Origin: Bryobacteraceae bacterium
GTDB lineage: Bacteria; Acidobacteriota; Terriglobia; Bryobacterales; Bryobacteraceae
Reading direction: 5' to 3'
Length of the DNA: 64,000 nucleotides
NCBI GenBank assembly: GCA_049510065.1
Contig: JBEKZH010000010.1
Location: forward strand, 17,653 to 81,652
Part shown: positions 59,273 to 62,078 of the stretch, piece after piece
Layout: each line of letters starts with the position of its first letter
Position numbering within the stretch: the first letter of the stretch is position 1
The notes under the pieces: generated by a model
Database searches by the model: none
Told to the model about the DNA's origin: nothing
Seen by the model: only the letters and a program-made list of their open reading frames with translations
Program-made: the position numbers and the translations under genes

Positions 59273-60220
59273 ATGTCACTTGCCCCGGTACTGTCGCCGA
59301 TCACCCCGCGCGCAACTTCGCTGCTGGCGCAGATTGGCGGCACGCCCTTGTTGCGGCTGGATCGCATTGCCGCGGACCTGCCGGGCGTCGAGCTCTACGG
59401 CAAGGCTGAGTACTTCAACCCGGGCGGATCCGTGAAGGACCGCGCCGCGCTCAACATGATCCTGGATGGCGAGCGCAGCGGGCGGCTGCGGCCGGACCGC
59501 ATCATCCTGGACGCCACCAGCGGGAACACCGGCATTGCCTATGCCATGATCGCGGCGGCGCGCGGGTACAGGGTTCGATTGTGCCTGCCGGCGAACGCGT
59601 CGGAAGAGCGCAAGCGCATGCTGCGGGCCTACGGCGCGGAGATGATTCTCACCGATCCGGCCGAGGGCTCCGACGGGGCGATCCGCAAATGCCGCGCGAT
59701 CTACGAAGCCGACCCGGACATCTATTTCTACCCGGACCAGTACGGCAACCCGGCCAACTGGAAAGCCCACTTCGAGACGACCGGTGCGGAGATCGTCGAG
59801 CAGACCGGCGGGCGCATCACGCATTTCGTGACGTCCATGGGCACCAGCGGCACTTTCATGGGCGTTTCGCGGCGTCTCAAGCGCGACATCGCCGGCGTGG
59901 AGTGCATCTCCGCGCAGCCGTCCTCGGGCTTCCACGGGCTGGAGGGGCTGAAGCACATGCCCACGGCCATCGTGCCGGCCATCTACGATCCCGAACTGGC
60001 CGACGACAACGTCTGGGTGGAGACCGAGGACGCCTACGCCATGGTGCGGCGGATGGCGCGCGAAGAGGGCATCCTGGTGGGGATTTCGTCGGGCGCGAAC
60101 CTGGTGGCGGCGCGTGCGGTGGCGCGGCGAGTGGTGGAGCGCGGCGAAGAGGCCGTGATCGTCACCATGATTTGCGACAATGCCGACAAGTATCTGAGCG
60201 AACCGTTCTGGAATGATTAG
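59273..60220 (+). CDS. cysM: PLP-dependent cysteine synthase (CysM/CysK family)
   Basis: NPGGSVKDRAAL (PLP lysine), SGNTGIAYA, TSGTFMG. Gene context matches the CysO-dependent CysM of mycobacteria. Confidence 0.85.
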   Translation: MSLAPVLSPITPRATSLLAQIGGTPLLRLDRIAADLPGVELYGKAEYFNPGGSVKDRAALNMILDGERSGRLRPDRIILDATSGNTGIAYAMIAAARGYRVRLCLPANASEERKRMLRAYGAEMILTDPAEGSDGAIRKCRAIYEADPDIYFYPDQYGNPANWKAHFETTGAEIVEQTGGRITHFVTSMGTSGTFMGVSRRLKRDIAGVECISAQPSSGFHGLEGLKHMPTAIVPAIYDPELADDNVWVETEDAYAMVRRMAREEGILVGISSGANLVAARAVARRVVERGEEAVIVTMICDNADKYLSEPFWND

Positions 60221-60226
60221 AATCGG

Positions 60227-60688
60227 ATGATCAGGATTGACGCGGAGGCGTGGGGCGCCATGGTGGCGCACGCCGAAAAAACCTATCCGGACGAGTGCTG
60301 CGGCGCGATGATCGGCGAGATCGGCGACGACGGCGGGAAGACCGTGCGGCTGGCCGTGCCCATGCGCAACTCGTATCGGGGGTCGCAGGAAGACCGCTAC
60401 GAGCTGAACCCGGAAGATTTGCTCGAAGCCGACCGCCAGGCGCGCGCGCGAGGGCTCGATTTGATTGGCATTTTCCACTCGCATCCGGATTGCGATGCGT
60501 ATTTCTCGCAAACCGACTTGAAGAACTCGTGCCCGTGGTATTCGTTCGTGGTCCTTTCCGTGCAGAAAGGGCGGTTCCATCACGCCAACAGCTTTCTGCC
60601 CGACGTGGACCAGACCGTGGCCGAAAAGGAAGAACTCGTTTATGCCCAGGATTCTGATTCCCACGCCGCTGCGGCAGTTCGCGGATAA
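60227..60688 (+). CDS. mec: JAMM/MPN+ metalloprotease (Mec-like)
   Basis: PDECCGAMIGE (the conserved Glu) and the HSHPDCDAYFSQTD JAMM motif (HxHx7Sx2D). Confidence 0.85.
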   Translation: MIRIDAEAWGAMVAHAEKTYPDECCGAMIGEIGDDGGKTVRLAVPMRNSYRGSQEDRYELNPEDLLEADRQARARGLDLIGIFHSHPDCDAYFSQTDLKNSCPWYSFVVLSVQKGRFHHANSFLPDVDQTVAEKEELVYAQDSDSHAAAAVRG

Positions 60689-62078
60689 ACAGAACGCCAT
60701 CGAGCTGACCGGCGGGACCGTCGGCGAAGTGCTTGGCGCGCTCACCTCGAAGTATGGGGAGCTGCGCCGGCACCTGTACACCGACGAGGGCCGGTTGCGC
60801 AGCTTCGTGAATGTCTACGTTAACGACGAGGATATTCGGTATCTCGAGAAGGACGCCACGCCGCTGAAGGACGGCGACACGGTGTCGATCGTCCCGAGTA
60901 TCGCCGGCGGGAGCGCGGGTGTGGCCGAACCGGTGGCTGCGGCTGCGCTGAGCAAGGACGAGATCCTGCGCTACAGCCGCCACCTGATCATTCCCGAGGT
61001 CGGGGTGGAGGGCCAGCTCAAACTGAAGCAGGCGAAGGTGCTGCTGGTGGGCGCGGGCGGGCTGGGCGCGCCGCTCGGTTTGTATCTGGCGGCAGCGGGC
61101 GTGGGGCGAATTGGCATCGTCGATTTCGACGTGGTGGACTTCACCAACCTGCAGCGGCAGGTGATCCACGGCACCAGCGACGTGGGGCGCAAGAAGCTGG
61201 ACTCCGCGGCCGACTCCATGCGTGAGATCAACCCGAATGTGCGGATCGACAAGTTCGAGGTGGCGCTCACCAGCGAGAACGCGCTGGACATCCTGAAGGA
61301 TTACGACCTGGTGATCGACGGCACCGACAACTTTCCCACGCGCTATCTGGTGAACGACGCGTGCGTGTTGCTGCACAAGCCGAACGTGTATGGGTCGATC
61401 TTCCGCTTCGAAGGACAGGCCACGGTGTTCGCGTACGAGGGCGGGCCGTGCTACCGCTGCCTGTATCCCGAGCCGCCGCCGCCGGGTCTGGTGCCGAGTT
61501 GCGCCGAAGGTGGCGTACTGGGCATTCTGCCGGGCACCATCGGCTTGATTCAGGCCACCGAAGCGGTGAAACTGATTCTGGGGATCGGCGAGCCGCTGGT
61601 GGGGCGCCTGCTGTTGTACGATGCTCTGGGGATGCGCTTCCGCGAGCTGAAGCTGCGCCGCAATCCCGAGTGCCCGGTGTGCGGCGATCATCCCACGGTG
61701 ACGAAGCTCATCGACTATCAGCAGTTCTGTGGAGTGGTGAAGACGGAGACGCCAGTGGGTACCAGCGACATCGACCCTGTTGACGTGAAGGCGAAGTTCG
61801 ACCGGCACGATTCGTTCGTGCTGCTGGACGTGCGGGAGCCGCACGAATACCAGATCTGCCGCATCCCCGGGTCGATCCTGATTCCGCTGGGCGATTTACC
61901 GAAGAGGGTGGCCGAGTTGGATTCGTCCAGCGAGATTGTGGCTCACTGCAAGATGGGCGGGCGCAGCGCTAAGGCGGTGGAGTTCCTGCGCCAGACGGGC
62001 TTTAAGAAGGTCCGCAACATGAAGGGCGGGATACTGGCGTGGAGCGATAGGGTGGACCCGACGGTTCCGAAGTATTAA
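60642..62078 (+). CDS. moeZ: Fusion of a CysO/MoaD-type sulfur-carrier (ubiquitin-like, ...SIAGG) to MoeZ/MoeB-type E1-like adenylyltransferase with C-terminal rhodanese
   Basis: aa 1-90 (...FVNVYVNDEDIRYLEKDATPLKDGDTVSIVPSIAGG) closely resemble M. tuberculosis CysO. They are followed directly by LRYSRHLIIPEVG...LLVGAGGLGAP...CxxC pairs...rhodanese (CKMGGRS). The start overlaps mec by 47 nt. Confidence 0.85.
   Translation: MPRILIPTPLRQFADKQNAIELTGGTVGEVLGALTSKYGELRRHLYTDEGRLRSFVNVYVNDEDIRYLEKDATPLKDGDTVSIVPSIAGGSAGVAEPVAAAALSKDEILRYSRHLIIPEVGVEGQLKLKQAKVLLVGAGGLGAPLGLYLAAAGVGRIGIVDFDVVDFTNLQRQVIHGTSDVGRKKLDSAADSMREINPNVRIDKFEVALTSENALDILKDYDLVIDGTDNFPTRYLVNDACVLLHKPNVYGSIFRFEGQATVFAYEGGPCYRCLYPEPPPPGLVPSCAEGGVLGILPGTIGLIQATEAVKLILGIGEPLVGRLLLYDALGMRFRELKLRRNPECPVCGDHPTVTKLIDYQQFCGVVKTETPVGTSDIDPVDVKAKFDRHDSFVLLDVREPHEYQICRIPGSILIPLGDLPKRVAELDSSSEIVAHCKMGGRSAKAVEFLRQTGFKKVRNMKGGILAWSDRVDPTVPKY

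What the first reader, a model, noticed from the sequence alone, without database searches (positions are those of the whole stretch)
59273..62078. Complete CysM / JAMM protease / CysO~MoeZ cluster with the ubiquitin-like sulfur carrier fused to its own E1-like activator
In M. tuberculosis the CysO-thiocarboxylate route to cysteine uses separate mec, cysO and cysM genes, with moeZ encoded elsewhere.

Here cysM and mec are followed by a single ORF. Its first 90 aa are CysO-like and end in the diglycine ...SIVPSIAGG (codons at ~60906-60911). The ORF then runs without a stop into a full MoeZ (ThiF/MoeB fold, CxxC pairs, rhodanese). The GG carboxylate must be free to be adenylated and thiocarboxylated. 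The fusion therefore implies obligatory cleavage after GG, presumably by the adjacent JAMM protease. That would be a ubiquitin-precursor-like maturation step built into a bacterial sulfur-carrier pathway.

The mec and cysO~moeZ ORFs also overlap by 47 nt.
Basis: partly seen in the sequence, partly recalled or inferred. Interest (0 to 1): 0.6.

Follow-up and report, generated by a model that had tools for sequence, protein, structure and literature searches.

The report
Sulfur carrier fused to its activator
This soil bacterium encodes its small ubiquitin-like sulfur carrier for cysteine synthesis as the front end of the enzyme that activates it, so the neighbouring protease almost certainly has to cut it free; this layout is real and widespread but has never been tested at the bench.

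Summary
cysM (59273-60220), a JAMM protease gene (60227-60688) and one uninterrupted 478-codon ORF (60642-62078) lie head to tail. The ORF encodes a CysO-type beta-grasp domain (residues 1-90, ending SIAGG, GG codons 60906-60911), then a ThiF/MoeB E1 domain and a rhodanese domain.

It is not a sequencing error. The same architecture occurs in over 120 independent close relatives, in about 22 of 150 sampled species genomes of the phylum, and in 33 named loci. Those loci span Acidobacteriota, Gemmatimonadota, Chloroflexota, Bacteroidota, Elusimicrobiota, Eisenbacteria and Thermoplasmata archaea.

Ala-Gly-Gly is invariant in 39 diverged fusions, while the linker after it varies in length and sequence. 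AlphaFold2 predicts the GG tail and linker to be disordered. A JAMM gene lies within 1.5 kb in 46 of 54 fused loci.

- 33 of 36 unfused CysO neighbours also carry 1-11 residues after GG, so capped precursors are the norm here.
- Fusion and fission happened at least 8 times.

Best reading: a precursor cut after GG by the adjacent Mec-like JAMM. That enzyme's known job (CysO-GG|Cys hydrolysis) is the same chemistry.

Cleavage itself is inferred, not shown. This is a new variant of a known kind, and this scan has noted it before on other DNA.

The parts
59273..60220 (+). cysM-like PLP-dependent cysteine synthase (315 aa)
   Evidence: - Pfam PALP, E 5e-69.
- NCBIfam cysKM subfamily, 349.6 bits against a cut-off of 344.15. 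The cysM equivalog scores 353.3, below its cut-off of 394.2.
- PDB: E. coli/Salmonella CysM 2bht at 253 bits; M. tuberculosis CysM 3dwg_A at 206 bits.
- Found in the same position in most related operons.
60227..60688 (+). Mec-like JAMM/MPN+ metalloprotease (153 aa), the only strong Prok-JAB gene in the genome
   Evidence: - Pfam Prok-JAB, E 1.5e-26.
- The motif E23...H84-S-H86-x7-S95-xx-D98 is intact.
- Best PDB match is 2kcq, an Mov34/MPN/PAD-1 family protein.
- It is the single PF14464 hit in the 6.04-Mb genome.
60642..62078 (+). cysO~moeZ fusion ORF (478 aa; calculated 52.0 kDa)
60642..60911 (+). CysO-type beta-grasp sulfur-carrier domain, residues 1-90, ending ...SIVPSIAGG
   Evidence: - Pfam ThiS, residues 4-90, matched to the profile's end.
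- PDB 3dwg_C (M. tuberculosis CysO), E 1.5e-16, aligned residues 4-90 to 5-93, that is to the very C-terminus of CysO.
- The AlphaFold2 N-terminal domain has block-mean pLDDT of 88-94 up to residue 80.
60906..60911 (+). Gly89-Gly90 codons (GGC GGG): predicted cleavage site after G90
   Evidence: G89 and G90 are invariant in 10 fusion clusters that share 41-63% identity. They are also invariant in 39 fusions from several phyla.
60912..60941 (+). Linker (about residues 91-100, SAGVAEPVAA), predicted to be disordered
   Evidence: - AlphaFold2 pLDDT is below 50 for residues 87-100.
- The distance from GG to the conserved RY motif varies from 9 to 39 residues among 54 fusions.
- The residue after GG (P1') is mostly Ser (22) or Ala (16).
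60972..61679 (+). ThiF/MoeB E1-like adenylation domain, residues 111-346 (GAGGLG at 137; CxxC at 270 and 344)
   Evidence: - Pfam ThiF, E 1.5e-83.
- Foldseek: MoeB 1jw9_B, TM 0.94 normalised to the target, rmsd 2.3; also ThiF 1zud and Uba4 6yub.
- Motif positions.
61782..62048 (+). Rhodanese domain, residues 381-469, with catalytic-loop Cys436 (CKMGGRS)
   Evidence: Pfam Rhodanese, E 1e-19. C436, G439, R441 and S442 are nearly invariant in alignment A2.

Best explanation
This is a three-gene operon for the protein-thiocarboxylate route to cysteine, the M. tuberculosis CysO/CysM/Mec+/MoeZ type. The carrier is translated as the N-terminal 90 residues of its own E1.

Proposed sequence of events:
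1. The 52-kDa CysO~MoeZ precursor is made.
2. The adjacent Mec-like JAMM metalloprotease cuts the Gly90|Ser91 bond in the exposed, flexible linker. This releases a 9.9-kDa CysO with a free Gly-Gly carboxylate and a 42-kDa MoeZ.
3. MoeZ adenylates CysO-GG. Its rhodanese Cys436 persulfide converts the adenylate to CysO-COSH.
4. CysM adds the sulfur to an activated serine. After S-to-N acyl shift this gives CysO-GG-Cys.
5. The same JAMM hydrolyses GG|Cys, releasing cysteine and recycling CysO.

The protease already cleaves 'GG|X' in every catalytic cycle. Anything appended after GG (a 1-11-residue cap or a whole E1) is therefore tolerated, which explains why caps are the rule in this family and why fusion and fission recur.

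What is shown: the architecture, its conservation, the invariance of GG, JAMM linkage and the lack of another CysO.

What is inferred: cleavage, the identity of the protease, all the chemistry, and the serine donor (O-phosphoserine versus O-acetylserine).
For: Architecture and intact catalytic motifs.

The fused domain is a CysO orthologue.

The fusion is real and common:
- 120 of 120 listed close homologues carry it.
- About 22 of 150 species genomes of the phylum have an uninterrupted match to residues 1-478.
- 33 named fused loci come from at least 7 phyla, including archaea.

Functional constraint sits exactly at the junction. A88-G89-G90 is invariant while the linker varies from 9 to 39 residues.

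The linker and GG tail are predicted to be disordered, and so accessible, between two confident domains.

JAMM linkage:
- A JAMM gene lies within 1.5 kb in 46 of 54 fused loci. Two of the remaining loci are cut by contig ends.
- Polyproteins with an intact JAB domain fused in front of Ubl-E1 exist: P0149 and P0151.

No alternative carrier exists. The genome's only other ThiS-family genes are a free ThiS and a MoaD-MoaE fusion.

Unfused relatives are also precursors. 33 of 36 separate CysO genes run 1-11 residues past GG, and 27 of 36 have a JAMM within 1.5 kb.

The fused state needs at least 8 changes on well-supported branches of the MoeZ tree.

Precedents from the literature:
- Mec+ hydrolyses CysO-Cys (PMC3227635).
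- DR0402 cleaves MoaD-MoaE to expose a C-terminal Gly (PMC8832034).
- QbsD/QbsE and CxnF/CxnE trimming (as described in PMC5925218).
- The general 2006 prediction (PMC1779556).
Against: - No protein-level evidence exists for cleavage in this or any CysO~MoeZ fusion. No paper describing the fusion was found in the library searched.
- Four fused loci have no JAMM within at least 4 kb (L033, L034, L086, L092). One of those genomes (G086) showed only a weak 32-bit Prok-JAB hit genome-wide.
- CysM here is closer to E. coli CysM than to the CysO-dependent M. tuberculosis CysM. Its use of CysO-COSH rests on gene order only.
- The genome also has two canonical CysK-type synthases and a CysE, so this route is auxiliary and its physiological role is unknown.
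- The fusion scores below NCBIfam's MoeZ and PRK07411 MoeB equivalog cut-offs.
Confidence: 0.8

Rival explanations
1. The fusion is cut after GG, but not by the adjacent JAMM. Another cellular peptidase does it, or the precursor cleaves itself.
For: Four of 54 fused loci lack a nearby JAMM. G086 has only a weak genome-wide Prok-JAB hit. The protease that cleaves the M. tuberculosis MoaX fusion was not identified in what I read (PMC4326299, title and abstract only).
Against: A JAMM lies within 1.5 kb in 46 of 54 fused loci. JAB-Ubl-E1 polyproteins exist. The JAMM's established substrate, CysO-GG|Cys, has the same scissile bond type (PMC3227635). No autoprocessing motif is evident in the linker, which varies in sequence.
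Confidence: 0.1
2. The N-terminal beta-grasp domain is never released. It is a permanent regulatory or docking domain of the E1, as Iyer et al. suggested for the Ubl-ThiF fusions of Campylobacter-type thiamine operons. The E1 then serves other carriers (MoaD, ThiS).
For: Ubl-ThiF fusions that co-occur with a separate ThiS were interpreted this way (PMC1779556). M. tuberculosis MoeZR also activates MoaD (PMC3227635). This genome has a MoaD-MoaE fusion and a free ThiS that need an E1.
Against: - The domain is orthologous (57-72% identity) to free-standing CysO genes that sit in the same operon slot in sister lineages.
- AGG is invariant, although an internal, never-exposed GG would have no reason to be.
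- There is no other CysO in the genome next to a conserved cysM-mec pair.
- A second, rhodanese-less E1 is available for ThiS or MoaD.
- Fusion and fission are frequent, implying functional equivalence of the two states.
Confidence: 0.06
3. Sequencing or assembly artefact: a hidden stop or frameshift after GG, so that cysO and moeZ are really two genes.
For: Close relatives exist with two genes. G014 (73% identical) has GG-GNA-TAA and then a separate moeZ start in the same frame. Read-level checking was not possible.
Against: The uninterrupted architecture recurs in 120 of 120 listed independent homologues. It also recurs in complete single-contig genomes (for example G148, G088 and G136) and across phyla. 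The linker here is shorter than cap + spacer + MoeZ N-terminus in G014, so it is a genuine deletion-type fusion and not a miscalled base.
Confidence: 0.01
4. Not exclusive of the main reading. Free MoeZ is also made by internal initiation at GTG codon 94 (60921-60923). That codon lies 7 nt after a GGGAG formed by the GG-Ser codons. The full-length product would then serve mainly as pro-CysO.
For: Sequence only: GGC GGG AGC GCG GGT GTG. The unfused relative starts MoeZ at a comparable distance before the conserved LSxxEIxRYSRH.
Against: There is no expression data. Val codons are simply common in these Ala/Val/Pro-rich linkers. I did not test whether a start plus Shine-Dalgarno motif is conserved. 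It would not remove the need to free the GG of CysO.
Confidence: 0.1

Closest known systems
M. tuberculosis CysO / CysM / Mec+ / MoeZR cysteine pathway (Burns et al. 2005, as summarised in PMC3227635)
   Same: The same four functions are present: a beta-grasp carrier ending in AGG, a PLP cysteine synthase, a JAMM hydrolase and an E1 plus rhodanese. The carrier domain's best structural relative is CysO itself.
   Different: - In M. tuberculosis cysO (Rv1335) is a separate gene ending exactly at GG, and moeZR (Rv3206c) is unlinked (PMC3227635). Here the carrier and E1 are one polypeptide, and all the genes form one operon.
- CysM here is closer to E. coli CysM than to the M. tuberculosis O-phosphoserine enzyme.
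MoaD-MoaE linear fusion cleaved by the JAMM DR0402 in Deinococcus radiodurans (Yang et al. 2018, as cited in PMC8832034); M. tuberculosis MoaX (PMC4326299)
   Same: A sulfur carrier is fused through its GG to a partner protein. Cleavage is needed for activity, and in Deinococcus a stand-alone JAMM does it and leaves a C-terminal Gly.
   Different: There the partner is the downstream sulfur acceptor enzyme (MoaE). Here it is the upstream activating E1, so the enzyme that must adenylate the GG is the very thing blocking it. This genome also carries a MoaD-MoaE fusion and has only one JAMM.
Capped sulfur carriers trimmed by cluster JAMM proteases: QbsE(-CF)/QbsD in thioquinolobactin and CxnE(-SEAARAEESR)/CxnF in chuangxinmycin (as described in PMC5925218); HcyS-Ala/HcyD in Wolinella (from my own knowledge, not found in the library)
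   Same: Residues after GG must be removed before adenylation, and the JAMM is encoded alongside. In this family 33 of 36 unfused CysO genes are capped in the same way.
   Different: Those caps are 1-10 residues, whereas here the 'cap' is a 388-residue enzyme. Those systems serve secondary metabolites or methionine rather than a cysM operon.
Ubl-ThiF N-terminal fusions in thiamine operons of delta/epsilon-proteobacteria and Firmicutes (Iyer, Burroughs and Aravind 2006, PMC1779556)
   Same: A beta-grasp domain sits at the N-terminus of an E1-like adenylyltransferase.
   Different: Those Ubl domains are described as distinct from ThiS. They co-occur with a separate ThiS and have no JAB, and were therefore proposed to have a different, non-carrier role. 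Here the domain is a bona fide CysO orthologue, the only one in the genome, with a JAB next door. That paper lists the cysteine-synthase/JAB/E1-rhodanese operon (Table 1, row 4c, including an acidobacterium) but does not mention this fusion.
Eukaryotic ubiquitin precursors (polyubiquitin and ubiquitin-ribosomal protein fusions) processed by deubiquitinases
   Same: The modifier is translated with C-terminal extensions or fusion partners and released by cleavage after Gly-Gly (established knowledge).
   Different: Different proteases mostly do the processing, the fusion partner is not the E1, and the product is used for conjugation rather than sulfur transfer.

Membership tests
CysO-type ThiS/MoaD sulfur carrier | Beta-grasp (ubiquitin-like) fold of about 90 residues | tested here: met
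   - Pfam ThiS, E 1.6e-14, full profile.
- M. tuberculosis CysO 3dwg_C, E 1.5e-16, aligned end to end.
- The AlphaFold2 N-terminal domain is confident, with alternating strands and helices.
CysO-type ThiS/MoaD sulfur carrier | Gly-Gly at the C-terminus with a free carboxylate | tested here: inconclusive
   AGG is present and invariant. In the primary translation product it is internal (residues 88-90 of 478), so a free carboxylate requires proteolysis, which was not observed.
CysO-type ThiS/MoaD sulfur carrier | Thiocarboxylate formed on the terminal Gly and used by CysM | not testable with these tools
   Needs mass spectrometry or reconstitution.
MoeZ/MoeZR (E1-like adenylyltransferase plus rhodanese) | ThiF/MoeB Rossmann adenylation domain with a nucleotide loop and two zinc-binding CxxC pairs | tested here: met
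   - Pfam ThiF, E 1.5e-83.
- GAGGLG at 137; CYRC at 270; CPVC at 344.
- Foldseek MoeB 1jw9_B, TM 0.94 normalised to the target.
MoeZ/MoeZR (E1-like adenylyltransferase plus rhodanese) | C-terminal rhodanese domain with an active-site Cys | tested here: met
   Pfam Rhodanese covers residues 381-469. The loop C436-KMGG-R441-S is conserved.
MoeZ/MoeZR (E1-like adenylyltransferase plus rhodanese) | Reaches NCBIfam's equivalog score for MoeZ (NF005902) | tested here: not met
   It scores 526.2 bits against a cut-off of 647, and 583.7 against 633 for PRK07411 MoeB. Only PRK08762 MoeB passes (486.1 against 449). It is therefore a MoeZ-type architecture, but not the curated mycobacterial equivalog.
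Mec+-type JAMM/MPN+ hydrolase | JAMM motif E...HxHx7Sx2D and a Prok-JAB domain | tested here: met
   E23; H84-S-H86-PDCDAYF-S95-QT-D98. PF14464 scores 92.9 bits against a cut-off of 25.
Mec+-type JAMM/MPN+ hydrolase | Hydrolyses the peptide bond after CysO Gly-Gly (CysO-Cys, or here CysO-linker) | not testable with these tools
   Only genomic linkage is available: a JAMM lies within 1.5 kb in 46 of 54 fused and 27 of 36 unfused loci.
CysO-dependent cysteine synthase (M. tuberculosis CysM type) | Fold-type II PLP enzyme of the CysK/CysM subfamily | tested here: met
   PALP, E 5e-69. TIGR01136 scores 349.6 against a cut-off of 344.15.
CysO-dependent cysteine synthase (M. tuberculosis CysM type) | Specific kinship with the O-phosphoserine/CysO-COSH enzyme rather than the sulfide/thiosulfate CysM | tested here: inconclusive
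   E. coli/Salmonella CysM scores 253 bits and M. tuberculosis CysM 206 bits. Substrate residues were not examined. Conserved operon position with mec and cysO is the only support.
JAMM-processed sulfur-carrier precursors (QbsE, CxnE, MoaD-MoaE type) | Extra residues after GG plus a JAMM encoded alongside | tested here: met
   388 residues follow GG, and the JAMM gene overlaps the fusion gene by 47 nt.
JAMM-processed sulfur-carrier precursors (QbsE, CxnE, MoaD-MoaE type) | Demonstrated cleavage to expose Gly-Gly | not testable with these tools
   No proteomic or biochemical data were available.

The most novel reading that the evidence does not exclude
The fusion may be more than a tolerated accident. 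It could be a zymogen-like control device. On this reading the uncleaved CysO~MoeZ is an inactive, strictly 1:1 pro-complex, and its activation is gated by the metal- and redox-sensitive JAMM. Carrier release, E1 activation and cysteine output would then all be licensed by one proteolytic step.

The larger JAB-Ubl-(rhodanese)-E1 proteins (P0149, P0151) would be self-processing polyproteins. That would make them a bacterial and archaeal analogue of ubiquitin-precursor and polyprotein logic in primary sulfur metabolism. Here the single JAMM would possibly also control molybdopterin synthase, through the genome's MoaD-MoaE fusion.
Probability: 0.15. Interest if true: 0.65.

Novelty: new variant of a known kind. 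Interest (0 to 1): 0.42.

Why it matters
The protein-thiocarboxylate route to cysteine has been studied mainly in M. tuberculosis, where the JAMM Mec+ is seen only as the recycling hydrolase.

The comparative picture here shows something broader in Acidobacteriota and several other phyla. The carrier is almost always made as a precursor, either capped or fused to its own E1. The JAMM is therefore probably also the maturation enzyme.

This matters for three reasons:
- It gives a simple explanation for why JAB peptidases accompany these sulfur-transfer operons, a point left open in the 2006 survey (PMC1779556).
- It offers natural single-polypeptide E1-Ubl substrates for studying prokaryotic JAMM specificity.
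- It warns annotators that 'MoeB/MoeZ' genes of about 480 codons hide the pathway's carrier. Pathway reconstructions from soil metagenomes that look for a separate cysO will wrongly call the route incomplete.

It does not overturn any principle.

Tried and rejected
- **Sequencing error.** Rejected on conservation.
- **A riboswitch or other known RNA upstream of cysM or within the cluster.** Rfam found nothing at E <= 1 in 58500-64000.
- **Promoter and terminator scan of 58800-62400.** It gave only two minus-strand promoter-like sites and one weak hairpin inside mec, no more than shuffles give. It is uninformative.
- **The perfect 22-nt inverted repeat at 59047-59068/59128-59149.** It lies between the upstream gene and cysM. 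I did not pursue it.
- **A structural test of whether CysO docks in cis on the E1 active site.** The model's coordinates are not exposed to scripts, so only per-residue confidence could be used.
- **Literature.** Nine searches found no paper describing a CysO-MoeZ fusion. The Begley-lab QbsE and HcyS papers are not in the searchable library, so QbsE is cited through PMC5925218 and HcyS from memory.
- **Placing CysM with the M. tuberculosis O-phosphoserine enzyme by sequence.** Inconclusive.
- **Whether the 47-nt mec/fusion overlap is a conserved coupling device.** It is not. Spacing between the two genes varies widely in relatives.

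
Full report
**What is in the sequence**

Three + strand genes lie head to tail:
- a PLP cysteine synthase at 59273-60220 (315 aa);
- a JAMM/MPN+ protease at 60227-60688 (153 aa);
- a 478-codon ORF at 60642-62078.

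Pfam places three domains on the 478-aa protein. A ThiS-family domain covers residues 4-90 and is matched to the last profile position. A ThiF domain covers 111-346 (E 1.5e-83) and a rhodanese domain covers 381-469.

Gly89-Gly90 are encoded by GGC GGG at 60906-60911, and the frame runs on without a stop. The E1 part has GAGGLG, two CxxC pairs (270, 344) and the rhodanese loop C436-KMGGRS. The JAMM has an intact E23...H84xH86x7S95xxD98 motif. The protease gene and the fusion gene overlap by 47 nt in different frames.

**Is the N-terminal domain really a CysO?**

Its best match among solved structures is M. tuberculosis CysO (3dwg_C, E 1.5e-16). The alignment runs from residue 4 to the AGG that ends CysO.

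It is 57-72% identical to free-standing CysO genes that occupy the same operon slot in related genomes.

AlphaFold2, run on a 39-sequence alignment, gives mean pLDDT 88.6. It yields a confident N-terminal alpha/beta domain and confident E1 and rhodanese domains. The E1 superposes on MoeB 1jw9_B with a TM-score of 0.94 normalised to the target. Residues 87-100, which are the GG tail plus linker, fall below pLDDT 50. The scissile region is therefore predicted to be flexible and exposed.

**Is it an artefact?**

No.
- All 120 listed close homologues from independent assemblies (81-100% identity) have ThiS+ThiF+Rhodanese in one protein.
- In an even sample of 150 species genomes of the same phylum, about 22 have an uninterrupted match to residues 1-478. 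These include complete single-contig genomes.
- A scan of named genomes returned 33 fused loci. They come from Acidobacteriota (Solibacteraceae, Bryobacteraceae, Acidobacteriaceae, Blastocatellia, Vicinamibacterales, Thermoanaerobaculia), Gemmatimonadota, Chloroflexota, Bacteroidota, Elusimicrobiota, Eisenbacteria, a Treponema MAG and Thermoplasmata archaea.
- In a library clustered at 50% identity, several mutually distant fusion clusters appear.

The window's organism is an acidobacterium. Its nearest named relatives are Acidobacteriaceae, Solibacteraceae and Bryobacteraceae MAGs.

**What the comparison adds**

1. *Constraint at the junction.* A88-G89-G90 is invariant in 39 fusions from several phyla and in ten clusters that share only 41-63% identity. 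The following linker varies in sequence, and the distance from GG to the conserved RY motif ranges from 9 to 39 residues. The residue after GG (P1') is usually Ser (22 of 54) or Ala (16 of 54). An internal GG that was never exposed would have no reason to be invariant.
2. *Protease linkage.* A Mec-like gene lies within 1.5 kb in 46 of 54 fused loci. Two more loci are cut by contig ends and two have it 1.6-3.6 kb away. Four have none within at least 4 kb. Of the genomes behind those exceptions, G028 and G146 have strong Prok-JAB genes elsewhere, while G086 shows only a weak hit.
3. *Capped carriers are the norm.* Of 36 unfused CysO genes next to a MoeZ, 33 continue 1-11 residues past GG (for example GNA, ARDRV, RPLRCACS, SACCSCCPLL). 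Only three stop at GG. The closest unfused relative (G014, 73% identical) reads ...AGG-GNA-stop, and a separate MoeZ start follows in the same frame.
4. *Repeated fusion and fission.* On a maximum-likelihood tree of the MoeZ domain (117 rows), the fused state needs 19 changes by parsimony. At least 8 of these are forced by well-supported branches. Fused lineages and capped-separate lineages are interleaved.
5. *Larger fusions exist.* The representative library contains:
   - JAB-ThiS-Rhodanese-ThiF (P0151, 634 aa);
   - JAB-Ubl-ThiF-Rhodanese (P0149, 619 aa);
   - ThiS-Rhodanese-ThiF (P0131);
   - ThiS-ThiF (P0127).

   All of them keep GG at the Ubl boundary, and the JAB domains keep HSHx7SxxD.

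**This genome's inventory**

The 6.04-Mb assembly (97% complete) holds three ThiS-family genes:
- the fusion;
- a free ThiS ending GGG-stop;
- a MoaD-MoaE fusion (...PPVSGG|TGKY...).

It has one strong Prok-JAB gene, the one in this operon. It also has a second, rhodanese-less E1. There is therefore no other CysO for CysM to use, and the single JAMM may also mature MoaD-MoaE.

Two canonical CysK-type synthases and a CysE are present as well. The carrier route is thus an additional pathway, as it is in mycobacteria.

**Mechanism proposed**

The precursor is cut after Gly90 by the Mec-like JAMM. The released MoeZ adenylates and thiocarboxylates CysO. CysM makes CysO-GG-Cys, and the same JAMM releases cysteine.

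The key point is that the recycling step established in M. tuberculosis (PMC3227635) is already hydrolysis of a peptide bond after CysO's Gly-Gly. Trimming a cap or a fused E1 needs no new activity. This explains why caps are nearly universal here and why fusion is gained and lost so easily.

Plausible benefits are 1:1 stoichiometry, co-localisation of carrier and E1, and protection of the GG end until the protease is present. These benefits are speculation.

Cleavage, the protease's identity, the serine donor and the sulfur source are all inferred.

**Comparison with what is known**

- Iyer, Burroughs and Aravind (2006; PMC1779556) list the ThiS/MoaD + JAB + E1-rhodanese + cysteine synthase operon, including an acidobacterium. 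They predicted in general terms that JAB might free ThiS/MoaD fused to other proteins.
- The Ubl-E1 fusion they describe is a different, thiamine-linked one, which they thought non-carrier. They do not mention a CysO-E1 fusion.
- JAMM cleavage of MoaD-MoaE is experimentally shown in Deinococcus (PMC8832034). Cleavage of M. tuberculosis MoaX is required for activity (PMC4326299).
- QbsE/QbsD and CxnE/CxnF are capped-carrier precedents (as described in PMC5925218).
- I found no paper on the CysO~MoeZ fusion in nine searches of the library.
- Earlier notes of this scan report the same fusion and capped carriers in several other genomes. One follow-up reached the same verdict.

**Verdict**

The feature is real, conserved and common. 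It is best described as a new, biochemically untested variant of known JAMM-matured sulfur-carrier systems.

Specialist interest is moderate. The principle is not new. The new elements are the ubiquity of capping, the repeated fusion to the carrier's own E1, the JAB-containing polyproteins and the presence in archaea.

Noticed in passing
window 61755-62054 vs 63410-63709; also L009 (G000:C2:79000-92000) about 3826-4152, beyond the window's end: The last ~300 nt of moeZ (the rhodanese end) recur 1.65 kb downstream at 86% identity. The second copy carries an in-frame TAG. A third, more decayed remnant ('REPHEYQIWFIPGSILIPLGHLPKRV') lies about 1.8 kb further on. This looks like serial small insertions at the 3' end of moeZ, each restoring the gene's end. 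No integrase was seen in the stretch examined.
   Followed up: partly
window 62081-62299, 62289-62588, 62491-63309: The first islet carries a type II toxin-antitoxin pair: a PF09720 antitoxin (E 2e-20) and a ParE-family toxin (E 1e-7). It also carries a 272-aa ORF with no Pfam match. The next islet holds a 258-aa ORF of similarly unknown function on the opposite strand (L009 2535-3311).
   Followed up: no
G000 contig C81 (L002 1024-1743, minus strand): This genome also encodes a 239-aa MoaD-MoaE fusion (...FLPPVSGG|TGKYIQ...). That is a second carrier that needs cutting after GG. Only one strong Prok-JAB gene exists in the whole assembly, so the operon's JAMM may serve both pathways, as DR0402 does in Deinococcus.
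   Followed up: partly
proteins P0151 (634 aa), P0149 (619 aa), P0131 (486 aa) from the representative library: Higher-order single-chain versions exist: JAB-ThiS-Rhodanese-ThiF, JAB-Ubl-ThiF-Rhodanese and ThiS-Rhodanese-ThiF. All keep GG at the Ubl end, and the JAB domains keep intact JAMM motifs. These are candidate self-processing polyproteins. Their organisms and gene contexts are unknown.
   Followed up: partly
loci L073, L109, L115, L055, L125 (unfused CysO genes): Some CysO caps are Cys-rich (RPLRCACS, LNLRCICR, CARRCICR, SACCSCCPLL, SAGGRCR). This hints at a metal-binding or redox-sensitive tail rather than random read-through.
   Followed up: no
loci L069, L110, L112, L116, L117, L122 (Sulfotelmatobacter / Acidobacteriaceae MAGs): One clade has CysO with only 1-2 extra residues (AA, IA, A, L, AL) next to MoeZ. 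It has no JAMM or CysM within 4 kb. This may be a different use of the carrier, or trimming by an unlinked peptidase.
   Followed up: no
window 59047-59068 / 59128-59149: A perfect 22-nt inverted repeat with a 59-nt loop lies in the 236-nt gap upstream of cysM. It has no Rfam match. It could be a terminator of the upstream gene or a regulatory hairpin.
   Followed up: no
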